From the NCBI GenBank assembly GCA_965207065.1, contig OZ242260.1, positions 1,632,001 through 1,696,000 on the forward strand: a stretch of 64,000 bases of DNA, written 5' to 3'. Shown in pieces: positions 7,426-11,354 of this stretch (positions within the stretch are counted from its first letter, which is position 1; each line of letters opens with the position of its first letter). A model generated the notes under the pieces. That model was given only the letters and a program-made list of their open reading frames with translations, ran no database searches and was not told the origin of the DNA. Origin of the DNA: a bacterium. GTDB taxonomy: Bacteria; UBA8248. The position numbers were made by a program, and so were the translations under genes.

Positions 7426-7614
7426 GGCGTCCCCCAAGCAGACAAGAGCAAAACTACCACGTTGATAATGAAACACGACTACCATGATAAGCAAGACAAT
7501 CCATGTTGAAGAATGCGTTTATCAATGAGAGGAGAAAAAATAATGAGGGATGTATCTCTTGCGTATTTCTTTCATGCTTGAGAATCTCTTCTTCTATCTT
7601 AAAAGGAGAGCATC

Positions 7615-8214
7615 ATGAGTTGGATCCAACCCATTTCTCCGGATGCCGTGGAGGGAGCAACAAAAGAAATTATCGAAGACCTGCGCAAGGCGAGAAAACC
7701 CATTCCAAAAATATTTCTCGAGATGGGAAGAAGACCCGGCATTTTGGCAGGGCGTGAAATGCTCCGCAATTCCGTACATGGCGGCTCGAGTCTCGGCACT
7801 AGGAGAGCGGAACTGCTTGCGTACTACGTGGCGGCTCATGGGGGCTGATACGGCTGAGCGATGAACCACGGGCAGTTGTTCCGTGACGCATGCGATGGTG
7901 TTTCCATCGCTGAAGTGGCTAAAGTACTAGACGACCCGAAGCAAGCGGATATCCTCGATCCCGCGGACCGAGTCATGCTCGACTATGCAGAGAAGATCAC
8001 ATACACGCCCCACGATATGGAAAAAACGGACATCGAGCGTTTGAGGCGCGTCGGCTTCAGCGAGGAGAATATCGTGGACATCATCGCTGCTGCGGTTTAT
8101 CGAAACTTCGCCAATTCCATAAACTACGCCTTCGGGCACGTGGAGCAAAACCCCGAAGGACCCGAGGAGTTGAATGCCGCCATCCAGAGGTTGAAAAAGA
8201 AGATTCGTGGCTAA
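7615..8214 (+). CDS. AhpD/CMD (peroxidase-related) family selenoprotein with two selenocysteines, UxxU (U78, U81); 199 aa
   Basis: ORFs 7615-7848 and 7861-8214 are in the same frame, joined by TGA TAC GGC TGA GCG. The joined protein reads ..LGTRRAELLAYYVAAHGG-U-Y-G-U-AMNHG.., placing both TGAs at the AhpD CxxC..H site; AAGGAG RBS at the 5' end; SECIS-like hairpin follows. Confidence 0.85.
7858..7889 (+). promoter_or_regulatory. Putative bacterial SECIS element
   Basis: Stem CACGG(7867-71)/CCGTG(7881-85), G.U and C-G pairs with a bulged U, apical loop AGUU (G at 7875); lower GCG/CGC pairing. Confidence 0.65.
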
Positions 8215-8950
8215 CAAATCACAAACCCTCTCATCTATATCGTATGTGGGCCTGTTCATATCGGGCACCTGCGCGCTGGCCGCTGCGGCTTCGGGACTGG
8301 GCCATCGCTGGGGATTTTGGCATTTCAGCACGGGGTTCCAGATTTTCAAGTCCGCATCCGTTATCGCTCTGATATCAGTCGCCGTATCCATGGCAGGTGG
8401 GCTATTTGCCCTGCGCGACGCCTCGAGATTGAGAACCGTCTGCGCCGCTCTCGGCATCGCGCTGGGTTTTACCGTAGCAGGTTTTCTGTATTCGCACATG
8501 CAAATTGCGAGACGGGTGCCCAAGATTCACGACATCACCACGGACAACCGAAACCCTCCCGCTTTTCAAGTCGTTCTTGCACTCAGAAAAGGAGCGAAAA
8601 ACCCTCCTGGGTATGAGGGGACGCGCATTGCGCGGCTCCAGATAAAAGCGTATCCGGACATCAAGCCAGTCACATTCCGGGATTCAAAAGAAGAAGTTTT
8701 CAAGCGCGCCCTCGACGCCGCACGCGCCATGGGCTGGCATGTGGTGTCATCCAAACCAACCGAAGGCCACATCGAGGCTTATGACACGACTTTCTGGTAC
8801 GGTTTCATCGACGACATCGTTATACGGATCACGTCGAACAGCGGGATGACGCGCCTCGATATCCGCTCGAAATCCCGCGTCGGCGTCGGGGACATCGGTG
8901 CGAACGCCCGGCGGATACGCGGCTTTTTCGAAAAACTGAAATTAAGATAA
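8207..8950 (+). CDS. DUF1499-domain membrane protein
   Basis: Three N-terminal TM segments, then IHDITTD..NPPAF, TTFWYGFIDDIVIRI, RSKSRVGVGDIGANARRI. Confidence 0.88.
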   Translation: MANKSQTLSSISYVGLFISGTCALAAAASGLGHRWGFWHFSTGFQIFKSASVIALISVAVSMAGGLFALRDASRLRTVCAALGIALGFTVAGFLYSHMQIARRVPKIHDITTDNRNPPAFQVVLALRKGAKNPPGYEGTRIARLQIKAYPDIKPVTFRDSKEEVFKRALDAARAMGWHVVSSKPTEGHIEAYDTTFWYGFIDDIVIRITSNSGMTRLDIRSKSRVGVGDIGANARRIRGFFEKLKLR

Positions 8951-8969: not shown

Positions 8970-11354
8970 GTGATCGAGGACTCGTCAGGAAACGATAATG
9001 TCTTGAACATCAAGGTGAGGGCGCAATTGTCTGAATATCAGGTTCTGGGCAAATCCATACCGAGACTCGACTCCGCAGAGAAGGTCTCCGGTTACGCCGA
9101 TTTCGGCGATGATTTGAGAAGGCCCGGCTGCCTCACCGCGAAACTGCTCCTGAGCCCGCTTCCCCACGCCGAAATCAAAAAAATCGACACTACCGATGCC
9201 TTGAAAGTTCCCGGCGTACACGCCATCGTCACGGCGGATGATTTTTCCGGTATCCGCCACGGCAGGCTCGTGCGCGATGAACCACTACTCGCCATCGACA
9301 AGGTGCTTTACGTCGGCGAACGCGTGGCGGCCGTCGCCGCTGAAACCCCCGAAACCGCGCAAGCTGCGCTCGATAAAATTCATGTCGACTACAAGGTTCT
9401 CCCCGCTGTTTTCACGACAGACGACGCCATGAAGGACGACGCCCCGCTACTCCATGACGCGCTGGATGATTACGCATCGTTTCCGGGTATCGTGCGCTAT
9501 GGGAACGTGGCCGCCGATATTCTCATTCGATCCGGTGATCCCATAGAAAACGCGCTTGCGCACGCCGACTTCGTTTTCGAGGACGAATACGAAACACCCC
9601 GCGTTCACCAGAATTATCTCGAACCCCGCGCCATGCTCGCGGAGCCGGGGCCCGAGGACAGCACGACAGTCTATTCTCCCACCCAGGGGGCTTTTGTGGT
9701 GCGCGCCATCGCCTCGGAAATTCTCGCACTCCCCATGAACAAACTGCGCGTCGTGAGCACCCATGTGGGAGGCGCTTTCGGCGGAAAATCCCAACATCTG
9801 ATGGAAGCCCTGGCCGTTTTGTTGAGCAGAAAGTCGAACCGGCCCGTTCAACTGACGCTCAACCGCGAGGAGGAGACCATCACCGGAAACCCGAGGCACG
9901 CTTACCGTATGCGCTATCGCACGGGCTTGACGCGGGAAGGGAAAATCATCGCGCGCCACGTACAAATCACATCGAACAACGGCGCCTATTGCATGACGGG
10001 CCCAATGGTTTTGGGAAAATCCTGCTACACCAGCGCGGGGCCATATAAAATTCCAAATGTCAGGGTCGATGGTCTGCTCATATATACAAACCTTCCGCCC
10101 AGCGGCTCCTACCGGGGATTGGGCGTGGCGCAGGTCGCTTTCGCCTGCGAGCGTCATACCGACCGCATCGCTTCGGAACTGGAAATGGACCCGCTCGCCT
10201 TTCGGCGCCTCAACGGGATGGATGAAAACGACGAGGACCCCGCAGGCACGATTCTACAGAGCGTCAGCATCAAGGAAACACTCGATCGTGCGGGCAAGAA
10301 GGCGGGCTGGGGAAAGCAGAAAAAGAAAAACCGGAATGTCAGAATCAGGCGCGGGATAGGCATCGGCTGCGCACGCTATCCCACGGGTGGGGGAGCGTCG
10401 GGCGCCGTGGTGAAGGTGAACGAAGATGGGGGTCTGGCCGTGCTGGCCGGGTGTGCTGATTTAGGCACCGGGGCGGCTACTGTTATGGCGCAGGTGGCGG
10501 CGGAGGTGCTTGGAGCCGAAGTTCAGAAGGTGAGCGTTCGTATCGCCGACACCGAAACAACGCCCTTCGACGCCATCTCTGCGGGCAGCCGTACTACGTT
10601 CAACATGGCGCACGCCGTGCGAATGGCGGCGGAGGATGCCCGAGAGCAAATGCTTCGCCAAGCGGCGCGCATGCTCGAATCCTCCCCGGAAGACTTAAGT
10701 ATAGGCGAGGGAAACATTTTTGTGCGCGCCGCACCCTCACGCGCCATCGCGTTTTCCGAGGTGGCATTTTCGGCCGTATGGAAAGGCGACGGCCCCGTGA
10801 CCGGGCGCGGCTCCTACCGCGGGGAGAATCCCCCTCATCGTACGGACAACGTGCGTGGCCACCCGGAACCCTCAAGGCCTGGGCCCGAATTCGCCACCCA
10901 AATCGCCGAAGTCGAAGTCGATACCGAGACGGGAGAAACCAGAGTCTTGAGAATCACCAGCGCGCAGGACGTGGGCTTCGCCATGAACCCCCTCACCCTG
11001 AACGGACAGATAGAGGGCGGCATCGCCCAGGGGCTGGGCTGGGCGCTTGCCGAGCAGATCCACCACGAAGGGGGCATCATCGAACATGCGGATTTCGAGA
11101 GCCAGCTCAATCCCACGAGTCTGGACGTATCGGAAATCGCAAGCGTGATCGTGGAATCGCCCGACGTGGAAGGCCCCTACGGGGCCAAGGGGGCGGGGGA
11201 GATGCCGCTCATTCCGGCAGCGCCCGCGATTGTGAACGCGATCGCAGACGCCATAGGGGATCCGGCCAACCCGAACCTCAACAAGCTGCCGATTGCGCCC
11301 GAAGACATCGTTCGCGCAGTTCGCGACAAAAACGGTTCAGTATCCGTTTCCTAG
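8970..11354 (+). CDS. Xanthine dehydrogenase/aldehyde oxidoreductase family molybdopterin-binding (large) subunit
   Basis: HQNYLEP, VGGAFGGK, GSYRGLG, GSRTT, GQIEGG, GAKGAGE motifs. Confidence 0.93.
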   Translation: MIEDSSGNDNVLNIKVRAQLSEYQVLGKSIPRLDSAEKVSGYADFGDDLRRPGCLTAKLLLSPLPHAEIKKIDTTDALKVPGVHAIVTADDFSGIRHGRLVRDEPLLAIDKVLYVGERVAAVAAETPETAQAALDKIHVDYKVLPAVFTTDDAMKDDAPLLHDALDDYASFPGIVRYGNVAADILIRSGDPIENALAHADFVFEDEYETPRVHQNYLEPRAMLAEPGPEDSTTVYSPTQGAFVVRAIASEILALPMNKLRVVSTHVGGAFGGKSQHLMEALAVLLSRKSNRPVQLTLNREEETITGNPRHAYRMRYRTGLTREGKIIARHVQITSNNGAYCMTGPMVLGKSCYTSAGPYKIPNVRVDGLLIYTNLPPSGSYRGLGVAQVAFACERHTDRIASELEMDPLAFRRLNGMDENDEDPAGTILQSVSIKETLDRAGKKAGWGKQKKKNRNVRIRRGIGIGCARYPTGGGASGAVVKVNEDGGLAVLAGCADLGTGAATVMAQVAAEVLGAEVQKVSVRIADTETTPFDAISAGSRTTFNMAHAVRMAAEDAREQMLRQAARMLESSPEDLSIGEGNIFVRAAPSRAIAFSEVAFSAVWKGDGPVTGRGSYRGENPPHRTDNVRGHPEPSRPGPEFATQIAEVEVDTETGETRVLRITSAQDVGFAMNPLTLNGQIEGGIAQGLGWALAEQIHHEGGIIEHADFESQLNPTSLDVSEIASVIVESPDVEGPYGAKGAGEMPLIPAAPAIVNAIADAIGDPANPNLNKLPIAPEDIVRAVRDKNGSVSVS

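What the first reader, a model, noticed from the sequence alone, without database searches (positions are those of the whole stretch)
7615..8214. Hidden double-selenocysteine (UxxU) AhpD/peroxidase-related protein
Seen: two short ORFs share one frame and are separated only by TGA-TAC-GGC-TGA-GCG (TGA at 7846-48 and 7855-57). Read-through gives a 199-aa protein with U-Y-G-U-A-M-N-H. The downstream ATG (7861) has no obvious RBS. Known: AhpD/CMD peroxidase-related enzymes use CxxC..H at this position; CxxU AhpD selenoproteins are described, while UxxU (diselenide-forming) motifs are rare and best known from the thioredoxin-fold SelL. Inference: this is a diselenide-type AhpD that pipelines would call two fragments or a pseudogene. 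Two independent nonsense mutations landing on both catalytic Cys codons would be an unlikely coincidence.
Basis: partly seen in the sequence, partly recalled or inferred. Interest (0 to 1): 0.92.

Follow-up and report, generated by a model that had tools for sequence, protein, structure and literature searches.

The report
Two-selenocysteine AhpD-like redox protein gene
This is a real, conserved gene for an AhpD-type redox enzyme in which both active-site cysteines are replaced by recoded stop codons (selenocysteine), a two-selenium form of a known selenoprotein family that gene callers cut into fragments.

Summary
Window 7615-8214 (+) is one frame broken only by TGA at 7846-48 and 7855-57. 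Read through, it gives a 199-aa protein that passes the curated cut-off of NCBIfam TIGR01926 (peroxidase-related/AhpD-like). Both TGAs fall exactly on the CxxC cysteines of solved AhpD-like structures, with the Glu and His of the proton relay in register.

The genome has selA, selB, selD and one tRNA-Sec. TGA is otherwise its commonest stop codon.

The double TGA is kept in 23 orthologues from three genera (52-88% identity). Both halves are under purifying selection. A CxxU paralogue coexists in most genomes, and more distant homologues are CxxU or CxxC, so UxxU is derived.

A conserved small hairpin (7867-7885, loop AGUU) lies 16 nt after UGA2 and 25 nt after UGA1. Synonymous variation collapses there. 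In the CxxU paralogues the better hairpin lies 8-9 nt further downstream.

Public gene calls hold only a 117/118-aa "hypothetical" fragment. Two reviews (2022, 2026) list AhpD-like proteins only as CxxU with one Sec. I rate it a new variant of a known kind. Sec insertion, a diselenide and the substrate are untested.

The scan has noted UxxU genes before, in thioredoxin-fold families on other DNA.

The parts
7604..7608 (+). Shine-Dalgarno-like AGGAG, 6 nt before the start codon
   Evidence: Read. A purine-rich GGAG/AGGAG core stands at the same place in the 23 orthologues.
7615..8214 (+). Full selenoprotein CDS, 199 codons plus TAA stop (8212-8214); AhpD-like / TIGR01926 peroxidase-related enzyme
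   Evidence: 88.9 bits against 81.8. AF2 model pLDDT 93.6, pTM 0.88. Foldseek top hits are AhpD-like structures. Median dN/dS is 0.13 for codons 1-77 and 0.17 for codons 95-199.
7810..7812 (+). Glu66 codon, 12 residues before U78 (the position of the proton-relay Glu)
   Evidence: Aligned to Glu in 6k40 and at least 90% conserved in A2. The relay is defined in PMC3141380 passages.
7846..7848 (+). UGA1 = residue 78, at the first Cys of CxxC; predicted Sec
   Evidence: TGA in 23 of 31 near-clade loci and TGC/TGT in the other 8.
7855..7857 (+). UGA2 = residue 81, at the second Cys of CxxC; predicted Sec (the ancestral Sec position of the family)
   Evidence: TGA in 31 of 31 near-clade loci and in 13 of 16 distant homologues.
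7867..7885 (+). SECIS-like hairpin A, CACGGGCAGTTGTTCCGTG: 6 bp, a bulged U and a C-G pair closing the tetraloop AGUU (7874-7877). It starts at the His85 codon.
   Evidence: Folds at -6.1 kcal/mol, z -2.5, with 4 of 200 shuffles as good; -7.6 with one flanking nt on each side. The same fold appears in 21 of 23 UxxU genes. Five core pairs are invariant in 29 distinct rows. Codon entropy over codons 82-91 is 0.139 against 0.735 elsewhere, 0 of 20,000 permutations as low.
7892..7910 (+). Second hairpin (7 bp, 5-nt loop), mainly within the genus; role unknown
   Evidence: 77% of cells paired, covariation no better than shuffles.
8207..8950 (+). DUF1499 membrane protein gene; its GTG start overlaps the stop of the selenoprotein gene
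   Evidence: Pfam PF07386, 87 bits. The overlap of 5 or 8 nt is kept in 19 of 19 genus-level loci.
8970..11354 (+). Xanthine-dehydrogenase-family molybdopterin-binding subunit, third gene of the conserved array
   Evidence: Pfam MoCoBD_1, MoCoBD_2 and Ald_Xan_dh_C. Found downstream in 15 of 22 related loci, mostly wherever the locus reaches that far.

Best explanation
Window 7615-8214 encodes one 199-residue AhpD-like (TIGR01926) thiol/selenol oxidoreductase. Both redox-motif cysteines are encoded by UGA and inserted as selenocysteine by the SelB/tRNA-Sec system. Both UGAs, 9 nt apart, are served by one small SECIS hairpin (7867-7885) that starts 9 nt after UGA2. Its apical loop lies 16 nt from UGA2 and 25 nt from UGA1. 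The active site is E66-x11-U78-Y-G-U81-x3-H85, the AhpD proton-relay layout, so the protein most likely cycles between a diselenol and an intramolecular diselenide while reducing a peroxide or an oxidised partner such as a peroxiredoxin. It arose in a Nitrospinota-labelled lineage from a CxxU paralogue by a single TGC-to-TGA change, together with an upstream shift of the hairpin. Shown: the gene is real, conserved and selected, both UGAs are on the Cys pair, the Sec machinery is present, and the hairpin is conserved. Inferred: Sec at both codons, one hairpin serving both, the diselenide, and the substrate.
For: Family: TIGR01926 88.9 bits against a cut-off of 81.8. PDB phmmer gave 5 hits, E 7.7e-13 to 4e-10, with Cys, Cys and His aligned to U78, U81 and H85. 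AF2 pLDDT 93.6; Foldseek top hits are 6k40, 2prr, 2oyo, 3c1l and 2pfx. The relay residues are as defined in PMC3141380 passages. Machinery: selB 386 bits, selA 579, selD 334 (itself with one in-frame TGA), tRNA-Sec 75.9, all over their cut-offs. Conservation: 2-TGA orthologues were found in 18 of 22 other same-genus genomes and 4 of 14 other same-family genomes, and in 0 of 24 more distant ones. All 23 read G-G-U-Y-G-U-A-x-N-H. Median dN/dS is 0.133 (171 pairs) before and 0.17 (170 pairs) after the TGAs, at dS about 0.6-0.7. Hairpin: see parts. It meets the published bSECIS rules for loop size, G in loop position 1-2 and 16-37 nt spacing for both UGAs (rules from the Fig. 2 legend of PMC13188914). 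Another AhpD-family selenoprotein gene of this genome has a GGUC tetraloop 21 nt after its UGA, and selD has a GGA loop at 17 nt. Hairpin A has a median of -7.6 kcal/mol in 23 UxxU genes against -3.6 in 8 CxxU paralogues. Hairpin B, 8-9 nt downstream, is -0.8 against -6.7. Polarity: the 16 distant homologues examined are CxxU (13) or CxxC (3). UxxU plus the near CxxU genes form a 100/100 clade. No competing decoder was found: 47 tRNAs, one with anticodon UCA (tRNA-Sec) and one ordinary tRNA-Cys. TGA ends 1673 of 3471 long open frames, and 6 of 23 orthologues end in TGA.
Against: There is no direct evidence of Sec insertion at either codon. The RNA-library contigs cover only 7500-7778 and may be DNA. 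The hairpin shows conservation but no compensatory change: 0 of 7 pairs change on both sides, and covariation equals shuffles. Part of its conservation is forced by the conserved peptide N-H-G-x-x-F-R. Alone it folds at -6.1 kcal/mol, weaker than the model's -7.5, and reaches -7.6 only with flanking bases. In a 45-nt context an alternative fold is preferred, and the region is no more stable than shuffles (z +0.61). Rfam has no match. The fit to the loop rule depends on the C-G closing pair with a bulged U; with a 7-nt loop, the G is third and the spacing to UGA2 is 15 nt. UxxU monophyly has only 68/99 support. The fifth relay residue (His132 or Tyr50 at x2) is Gly80 here. Pfam CMD is below its cut-off (19 against 23). 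No ahpC-like partner gene lies next to it.
Confidence: 0.8

Rival explanations
1. Only UGA2 is selenocysteine. UGA1 is read some other way (Cys via a SelB-dependent tRNA-ReC-type tRNA, or near-cognate Trp/Cys), or it acts as a selenium-sensing termination gate that limits full-length product, so the mature site is CxxU-like or mixed.
For: PMC13582414 (passages) reports that genomes with UxxU hydrogenases often carry tRNA-ReC and says one or both UGAs may be read as Cys. UGA2 is the ancestral Sec position, being TGA in all 31 near-clade loci. Re-use of one hairpin within three codons is unproven in any system that I read about.
Against: No second SelC-like tRNA was found. The Rfam tRNA-Sec model gives one hit over its cut-off, and the next seven examined are ordinary Leu, Ser, Tyr and Asp tRNAs. 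ARAGORN on the whole genome finds one UCA anticodon and one normal 75-nt tRNA-Cys. If Cys were wanted, TGC or TGT would serve, as in the paralogue. Yet TGA is kept in 23 of 23 orthologues at dS of about 0.6-0.7. The hairpin is placed so that UGA1 has the spacing (25 nt) that the paralogue's single UGA has to its own hairpin (24 nt). ARAGORN and Rfam could miss an unusual allo-tRNA.
Confidence: 0.12
2. The chemistry differs from AhpD. The UxxU pair serves reductive dehalogenation, like the CMD-fold debrominase Bmp8 or the Sec-dependent deiodinases, or it binds or handles a soft metal or metalloid (Hg, Cu, As, Se) rather than reducing peroxides or peroxiredoxin.
For: Bmp8 (6ohj, 6ohi) is among the Foldseek hits at E 5e-6 and TM 0.63-0.66. 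Other bacterial UxxU proteins in the reviews are metal-binding, such as NF041115 'putative mercuric reductase'. No ahpC is adjacent. The conserved neighbours are a DUF1499 membrane protein and a Mo enzyme subunit. Titles and earlier notes point to marine or sponge sources.
Against: Sequence hits are best to AhpD-like and peroxidase-related proteins at 22-25% identity, against 16-18% for Bmp8. The Glu and His of the relay are conserved. Nothing in the neighbourhood names a halogen or metal pathway.
Confidence: 0.15
3. A decaying pseudogene, or two independent small genes, or a sequencing or assembly error.
For: Automatic gene calls treat it so. In the protein collection 24 of the 25 hits are 117-118-aa C-terminal fragments, and two of them are named 'hypothetical protein'. 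The raw TGA-x-x-TGA pattern is common in open off-frames of this genome.
Against: Both halves are under purifying selection, and there are no frameshifts or other stops in 23 orthologues at 52-88% identity. The internal start is not conserved. Both TGAs fall on the two catalytic residues. An independent assembly has the same TGAs.
Confidence: 0.02

Closest known systems
AhpD-like selenoprotein family (TIGR01926 / COG2128 YciW; 'AhpD-like 1' of marine metagenomes), motif CxxU, one Sec
   Same: Same HMM family, same all-helical fold, Sec at the second motif position, and a small hairpin just downstream. A CxxU paralogue at 46% identity sits in the same genome.
   Different: The first motif Cys is also UGA. 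The best hairpin lies 8-9 nt further upstream. The motif is x1 = Tyr, x2 = Gly instead of x2 = Tyr. The tables in the 2022 and 2026 reviews list this family only as CxxU with 1 Sec (passages).
Mycobacterium tuberculosis AhpD and P. aeruginosa PA0269 (Cys forms)
   Same: The E-x11-C-x-x-C-x3-H proton-relay spacing (PMC3141380 passages) is matched by E66, U78, U81 and H85. The fold family is the same.
   Different: Sec replaces both Cys. The fifth relay residue (His132 or Tyr50) is Gly80. M. tuberculosis AhpD is only a weak structural hit (E 0.06, TM about 0.45-0.5). No ahpC is adjacent.
Selenoprotein L and bacterial/archaeal Prx-like thiol:disulfide oxidoreductases with UxxU
   Same: A U-x-x-U redox motif that replaces CxxC. 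A diselenide is proposed or shown for SelL (Shchedrina 2007, seen only as a reference entry; the content is recalled).
   Different: Those have a thioredoxin fold, while this one has the all-alpha AhpD/CMD fold. SelL is eukaryotic, with a 3'-UTR SECIS. It is not a member of that family.
[quoted passage not shown]
   Same: Bacterial CxxU and UxxU forms of one motif. The authors also suggest a single downstream SECIS for both UGAs and a possible CxxU intermediate (passages).
   Different: There the residues are Ni ligands, not a redox pair. The authors report the SECIS core as conserved between CXXU and UXXU types, whereas here the favoured hairpin differs in position between the two clades. tRNA-ReC was frequent there and was not found here.

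Membership tests
NCBIfam TIGR01926 peroxidase-related enzyme (AhpD-like) | Whole-protein HMM score over the curated cut-off | tested here: met
   88.9 bits against 81.8, E 3.4e-25, residues 2-178 on profile positions 1-176 of 178, with C standing for U.
NCBIfam TIGR01926 peroxidase-related enzyme (AhpD-like) | CxxC (or CxxU) redox motif followed by His at +4, and Glu 12 residues before the first Cys | tested here: met
   U78, U81 and H85 align on Cys, Cys and His of 6k40, 3c1l and 2prr, and E66 aligns on Glu. The relay definition comes from PMC3141380 passages.
NCBIfam TIGR01926 peroxidase-related enzyme (AhpD-like) | Fifth proton-relay residue (His or Tyr at motif position x2) | tested here: not met
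   Position x2 is Gly80, and Tyr79 is at x1. The solved relatives have C-x-Y-C. PMC3141380 says this residue is not absolutely conserved.
NCBIfam TIGR01926 peroxidase-related enzyme (AhpD-like) | All-alpha AhpD/CMD fold | tested here: met
   AF2 pLDDT 93.6, ten helices. Foldseek 6k40 at E 2.8e-7, TM 0.69/0.73, and 32 PDB matches at E <= 0.001. This is a predicted model, not a solved structure.
NCBIfam TIGR01926 peroxidase-related enzyme (AhpD-like) | Peroxidase or AhpC-reductase activity | not testable with these tools
   Needs an enzyme assay.
Pfam PF02627 CMD | Score over the gathering threshold | tested here: not met
   19 bits against 23. The best stretch is 141-174, not the active site.
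Bacterial SelB/SECIS-dependent selenoprotein | In-frame UGA aligned with Cys in homologues and conserved as UGA | tested here: met
Bacterial SelB/SECIS-dependent selenoprotein | selA, selB, selC and selD in the genome | tested here: met
   All four are over their curated cut-offs.
Bacterial SelB/SECIS-dependent selenoprotein | bSECIS model: 3-9 nt apical loop, 4-16 bp stem, G in loop position 1-2, 16-37 nt from the UGA, MFE <= -7.5 kcal/mol | tested here: inconclusive
   Loop AGUU, 6+1 bp, G second, spacing 16 nt (UGA2) and 25 nt (UGA1): met. The energy is -6.1 alone and -7.6 with flanking bases: borderline. There is no covariation. bSECISearch itself was not available.
Bacterial SelB/SECIS-dependent selenoprotein | Selenium in the protein | not testable with these tools
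   Needs MS or 75Se labelling.
SelL / Prx-like UxxU diselenide oxidoreductases | Thioredoxin fold | tested here: not met
   The model is all-alpha, and the top PDB hits are AhpD/CMD proteins. It resembles that family in motif only.
SelL / Prx-like UxxU diselenide oxidoreductases | U-x-x-U motif able to form a diselenide | tested here: inconclusive
   The motif is present. U78 is at the N-cap and U81 in the first turn of helix 79-92. Bond formation was not tested.

The most novel reading that the evidence does not exclude
A bacterial lineage turned a one-Sec AhpD-like enzyme into a diselenide enzyme on a non-thioredoxin fold. In doing so it moved its SECIS hairpin about 9 nt upstream, so that the new UGA keeps the ancestral spacing (about 25 nt) while the old UGA is decoded at the minimal spacing (16 nt). 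On this reading one hairpin is re-used by SelB twice within three codons. The CxxU and UxxU paralogues coexist in the same cell and form a natural matched pair. That pair could be used to measure what a second Sec buys, and how closely spaced UGAs are decoded in bacteria.
Probability: 0.45. Interest if true: 0.65.

Novelty: new variant of a known kind. Interest (0 to 1): 0.52.

Why it matters
AhpD-like proteins are among the most abundant marine selenoproteins: 299 'AhpD-like 1' genes in the GOS survey, all listed as CxxU. A UxxU form extends diselenide-type active sites to the all-helical AhpD/CMD fold.

It also supplies a tractable case for an open mechanistic question, raised but not answered in PMC13582414: whether one bacterial SECIS can serve two UGAs three codons apart. 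The system has a CxxU paralogue as a built-in control, plus a visible difference in hairpin position.

On the practical side, current gene callers lose the catalytic half of this protein. Public collections hold only a 117/118-aa 'hypothetical protein'. Redox-defence inventories of these selenoprotein-rich Nitrospinota-labelled bacteria are therefore incomplete.

Tried and rejected
1. Rfam search of 7500-8300 at E <= 10 gave 0 matches, so no curated bacterial SECIS family covers this hairpin.

2. RNAalifold on all 31 sequences recovered only the 5-bp core of hairpin A plus weak long-range pairs.

3. My first pair count used wrong columns for the second helix. A second try had a string of the wrong length (error). 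The corrected count is.

4. The genome-wide scan for paired TGAs at spacings of 1-5 codons with open flanks gave 829 mostly off-frame hits and was useless for finding other UxxU genes. I used it only as a chance estimate, refined.

5. One fold (given as L048) used a wrong reference and is disregarded. In one search the script picked a wrong frame for the CxxU paralogue, and those rows are disregarded.

7. G025's '2 TGA' hit is a CxxU gene plus another TGA, not a second UxxU lineage.

8. The RNA-library contigs X19 and X20 cover only 7628-7778 and 7500-7731, do not reach the TGAs and may be DNA. They are no evidence of read-through.

9. The pattern scan of genome contigs was specific to G-U-Y-G-U-x-x-N-H-G. 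Four of its 26 hits were chance matches, and UxxU forms with other x residues would be missed.

10. I considered and rejected genome-wide UGA reassignment.

11. I did not run a metagenome scan, a complex prediction or the representative-protein search. None would have changed the verdict.
Full report
**1. The observation**

The sequence is as described. ORF 7615-7848 and ORF 7861-8214 lie in one frame, separated by TGA-TAC-GGC-TGA-GCG, with the TGAs at 7846-48 and 7855-57. Reading TGA as U gives 199 residues with G-G-U78-Y-G-U81-A-M-N-H85.

AGGAG (7604-7608) stands 6 nt before ATG 7615, and a similar site is kept in all 23 orthologues.

The pattern alone is not rare. TGA-x-x-TGA with open flanks of at least 77 and 100 codons occurs 25 times in the six frames of this 59.5% GC genome. 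The argument therefore rests on homology and conservation.

**2. What the protein is**

- **Family.** With C standing for U, the protein passes the curated cut-off of NCBIfam TIGR01926, 'peroxidase-related enzyme': 88.9 bits against 81.8, covering 176 of 178 profile positions. Pfam CMD is below its threshold (19 against 23).
- **Solved relatives.** phmmer against PDB sequences finds five AhpD-like chains (6k40, 3c1l, 2prr, 2oyo, 2pfx; E 7.7e-13 to 4e-10). In the three printed alignments, U78 and U81 fall exactly on the two Cys of CxxC and H85 on the following His.
- **Proton relay.** E66 aligns with the Glu that lies 12 residues before the first Cys. This is the E-x11-C-x-x-C-x3-H relay described for M. 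tuberculosis AhpD (Glu118, Cys130, His132, Cys133, His137) and for PA0269 (PMC3141380, passages). The fifth relay residue, at motif position x2, is Gly here, with Tyr at x1.
- **Fold.** An AlphaFold2 model built on a 22-sequence alignment is confident (pLDDT 93.6, pTM 0.88) and all-helical. U78 sits at the N-cap of helix 79-92. Foldseek returns the same AhpD-like structures first (E 2.8e-7, TM 0.69/0.73). The CMD-fold debrominase Bmp8 is at rank 12.

**3. Can this organism make selenoproteins?**

Yes. The single-contig genome (4.48 Mb) carries all four components over their cut-offs:

| Component | Score (bits) | Cut-off (bits) |
|---|---|---|
| selB | 386 | 242 |
| selA | 579 | 268 |
| selD (one in-frame TGA of its own) | 334 | 125 |
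| tRNA-Sec | 75.9 | 47 |

TGA is not reassigned. It ends 1673 of 3471 open frames of at least 300 codons, and 6 of the 23 orthologues use TGA as their terminator.

A recent paper (PMC13582414, passages) reports that genomes with UxxU hydrogenases often carry tRNA-ReC, which can read SECIS-dependent UGA as Cys. I found no such tRNA. The seven next-best Rfam tRNA-Sec hits that I examined are ordinary Leu, Ser, Tyr and Asp tRNAs. ARAGORN on the whole genome finds 47 tRNAs, of which one has a UCA anticodon (tRNA-Sec) and one is an ordinary 75-nt tRNA-Cys. An atypical tRNA could still have been missed.

**4. Conservation**

A six-frame search of 60 related genomes found full-length orthologues with two in-frame TGAs as follows:

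| Group searched | Genomes with the 2-TGA orthologue | Identity to the window's protein |
|---|---|---|
| Other genomes of the same genus | 18 of 22 | 73-87% |
| Other genomes of the same family | 4 of 14 | 52-58% |
| More distant genomes | 0 of 24 | - |

All 23 sequences, including the window's own, read G-G-U-Y-G-U-A-[M/V/I]-N-H.

A second clade, present in nearly all of these genomes and in this one at 46% identity, reads G-G-C-Y-G-U-T-x-N-H.

Residue 83 is Val or Ile in the four orthologues from other genera (GTC, GTA, ATT, GTG). The 'second ORF' therefore has no conserved start.

Among the 19 genus-level sequences, median dN/dS is 0.133 for codons 1-77 (171 pairs, dS 0.69) and 0.17 for codons 95-199 (170 pairs, dS 0.56). 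Both halves are coding and selected. These pairs share ancestry and are not independent.

A scan of one genome for each of 185,579 species with a DNA pattern for G-U-Y-G-U-x-x-N-H-G gave 26 stretches. Of these, 22 are full-length homologues; their records are titled Nitrospinota, Nitrospinaceae or plain 'bacterium'. The other 4 are chance matches. Most of the 22 are probably the same species genomes as.

An independent assembly from another study (X3, 8 differences in 801 nt) keeps both TGAs.

**5. Origin**

Sixteen more distant homologues from the same relatives are CxxU (13) or CxxC (3).

In a maximum-likelihood tree of 48 rows, UxxU and the near CxxU genes form a 100/100 clade on a long branch. 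UxxU can be one side of a single branch, but with only 68/99 support and in 68% of bootstrap trees.

The simplest history is CxxC, then CxxU, then a duplication, then one TGC-to-TGA change. One or two changes at position 78 are both compatible with the tree.

**6. The SECIS**

*Hairpin A.* Nine nucleotides after UGA2 lies CACGGGCAGTTGTTCCGTG (7867-7885). It folds as 6 bp, a bulged U, and a C-G pair closing the tetraloop AGUU. The energy is -6.1 kcal/mol alone (z -2.5, with 4 of 200 shuffles as good) and -7.6 with one flanking base on each side. The same fold is the optimum in 21 of 23 UxxU genes. In the other genera the loop is GGUC or GUC.

*Fit to the published model.* I compared it with the published bacterial SECIS model (Fig. 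2 legend of PMC13188914):

| Rule | This hairpin | Result |
|---|---|---|
| Apical loop 3-9 nt | AGUU, 4 nt | met |
| Upper stem 4-16 bp | 6+1 bp | met |
| G in loop position 1-2 | G second, followed by U | met |
| Spacing to the Sec-UGA 16-37 nt | 16 nt to UGA2, 25 nt to UGA1 | met |
| MFE <= -7.5 kcal/mol | -6.1 alone, -7.6 with flanks | borderline |

*Synonymous sites.* Synonymous variation collapses here. Mean codon entropy at amino-acid-invariant degenerate codons is 0.139 for codons 82-91 (n = 8) against 0.735 elsewhere (n = 82), and 0 of 20,000 permutations were as low. CGT for Arg90 and TTG for Leu88 are fixed in 19 of 19.

*Limits.* The five core pairs never vary, so there is no covariation. 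The peptide N-H-G-x-x-F-R constrains part of the sequence. A competing fold exists in the 45-nt context. Rfam has nothing.

*Comparison within the genome.* Another AhpD-family selenoprotein gene of this genome has a GGUC tetraloop 21 nt after its UGA, and selD has a GGA loop at 17 nt.

**7. A difference between the clades**

| Hairpin | 23 UxxU genes, median kcal/mol (range) | 8 CxxU paralogues, median kcal/mol (range) |
|---|---|---|
| A (7867-7885 in the window) | -7.6 (-10.5 to -5.1) | -3.6 (-6.4 to -3.0) |
| B (8-9 nt further downstream) | -0.8 (-1.4 to 0) | -6.7 (-10.5 to 0) |

In the paralogues, hairpin A has a 7- or 9-nt loop without G in its first two positions. Six of the 8 paralogues have a good hairpin B: GCTTTC, then the loop CGTGCT (or a near variant of it), then GAAAGC. 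The two from one genus do not.

The paralogue's UGA is 24 nt from its loop. In the UxxU genes UGA1 is 25 nt and UGA2 is 16 nt from loop A. I read this as a repositioning of the SECIS along with the new upstream UGA. That is inference from folding energies of 31 related sequences, not a demonstrated function.

**8. Surroundings**

Upstream, on the minus strand, lie a CoA-transferase, a ThiL-like gene and a ThiE-like gene.

Downstream, a DUF1499 membrane protein gene starts at a GTG that overlaps the stop (8207), and an xanthine-dehydrogenase-family Mo subunit follows at 8970-11354.

- The overlap is kept in 19 of 19 genus-level loci.
- In 22 further loci, DUF1499 follows in 18 and the Mo subunit in 15.
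- The three loci from another genus have a different neighbour, and several loci end too early to tell.
- The genome has nine paralogues of the Mo subunit. One of them abuts another AhpD-family selenoprotein gene noted earlier in this scan.

This is suggestive but could be plain synteny.

**9. What is known**

AhpD-like selenoproteins with CxxU have been known since the marine metagenome surveys: 299 'AhpD-like 1' genes in GOS (PMC2398784, passages).

The catalogue tables of the 2022 and 2026 reviews (PMC9312934 and PMC13188914, passages) list the AhpD-like protein (TIGR01926/COG2128) as CxxU with one Sec. They give UxxU only for Prx-like oxidoreductases, a MerA-like metal-binding protein and an FmdB-family protein. 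PMC13582414 adds UxxU hydrogenases.

Full-text searches found no description of a two-Sec AhpD-like protein. The searches were 'UxxU' with selenoprotein, 'AhpD-like' with selenocysteine or 'multiple Sec', 'AhpD' with diselenide, 'Nitrospin' with selenoprotein, 'UBA8248' with selenocysteine, and selenoproteome with sponge and symbiont.

BSepDB (PMC13326102, passages) ranks Nitrospinota-labelled (GTDB UBA8248) genomes among the richest in selenoprotein genes (54, 50 and 48). Its pipeline handles multi-Sec genes, so these genes may already sit in that database. I could not see the database or any supplements.

Public protein collections hold only the 117/118-aa C-terminal fragment: 24 of the 25 hits, two of them named 'hypothetical protein [Nitrospinae bacterium]'.

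**10. Verdict**

This is a genuine, conserved selenoprotein gene with a UxxU active site on the AhpD fold. It is a new variant of a known kind.

| Claim | Confidence |
|---|---|
| The gene is real | about 0.95 |
| Both UGAs are read as Sec | about 0.8 |
| Diselenide-based peroxide or peroxiredoxin reduction | about 0.5 |

The role of the second Cys of AhpD as the nucleophile, and the low redox potential of diselenides, are recalled and were not checked here.

Noticed in passing
window 7892-7910: A second hairpin (7 bp, 5-nt loop) lies right after the SECIS-like hairpin and is kept mainly within the genus. 77% of cells are paired, there are two pairs with compensatory changes, and covariation is no better than shuffles. 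An earlier scan note on another UxxU gene (e1-985097) also mentioned an extra hairpin.
   Followed up: partly
window 8207-8950 and 8970-11354; G000:C1:2849109-2851343: The array selenoprotein, DUF1499 (start overlaps the stop), XDH-family Mo subunit is conserved in the genus. The genome holds nine paralogues of the Mo subunit (32-37% identity). One of them abuts another AhpD-family selenoprotein gene, so the pairing of an AhpD-family selenoprotein with a Mo subunit occurs twice.
   Followed up: partly
G010:C4:127136-127390 and G010:C5:835962-836216: One same-genus genome lacks the full UxxU gene. It has two copies of an 85-residue remnant matching residues 115-199 at 79% identity, with no stops.
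   Followed up: no
G000:C1:543537-544499 (L011): selD of this genome is itself a selenoprotein (G-G-U-G-S-K). A hairpin with a GGA loop lies 17 nt after its UGA.
   Followed up: partly
window 7891-7893 (Cys93 codon): A third Cys, 12 residues after U81, is kept in 18 of 19 genus-level orthologues and in one orthologue of another genus. It is Ser or Thr in the remaining UxxU genes and in the CxxU paralogues. It could be an extra redox partner.
   Followed up: no
window 8212-8214; run X3: A near-identical strain has A>G at 8213, turning the TAA stop into TGA, and 6 of 23 orthologues end in TGA. The same mRNA would then use UGA twice for Sec and once as a stop.
   Followed up: partly
relatives: Related genomes carry up to six AhpD-like matches each, most with one in-frame TGA. 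Their motifs are CFYU, CKYU, CRYU and CHYU. This is a large paralogous expansion of CxxU AhpD-like selenoproteins in the lineage.
   Followed up: partly
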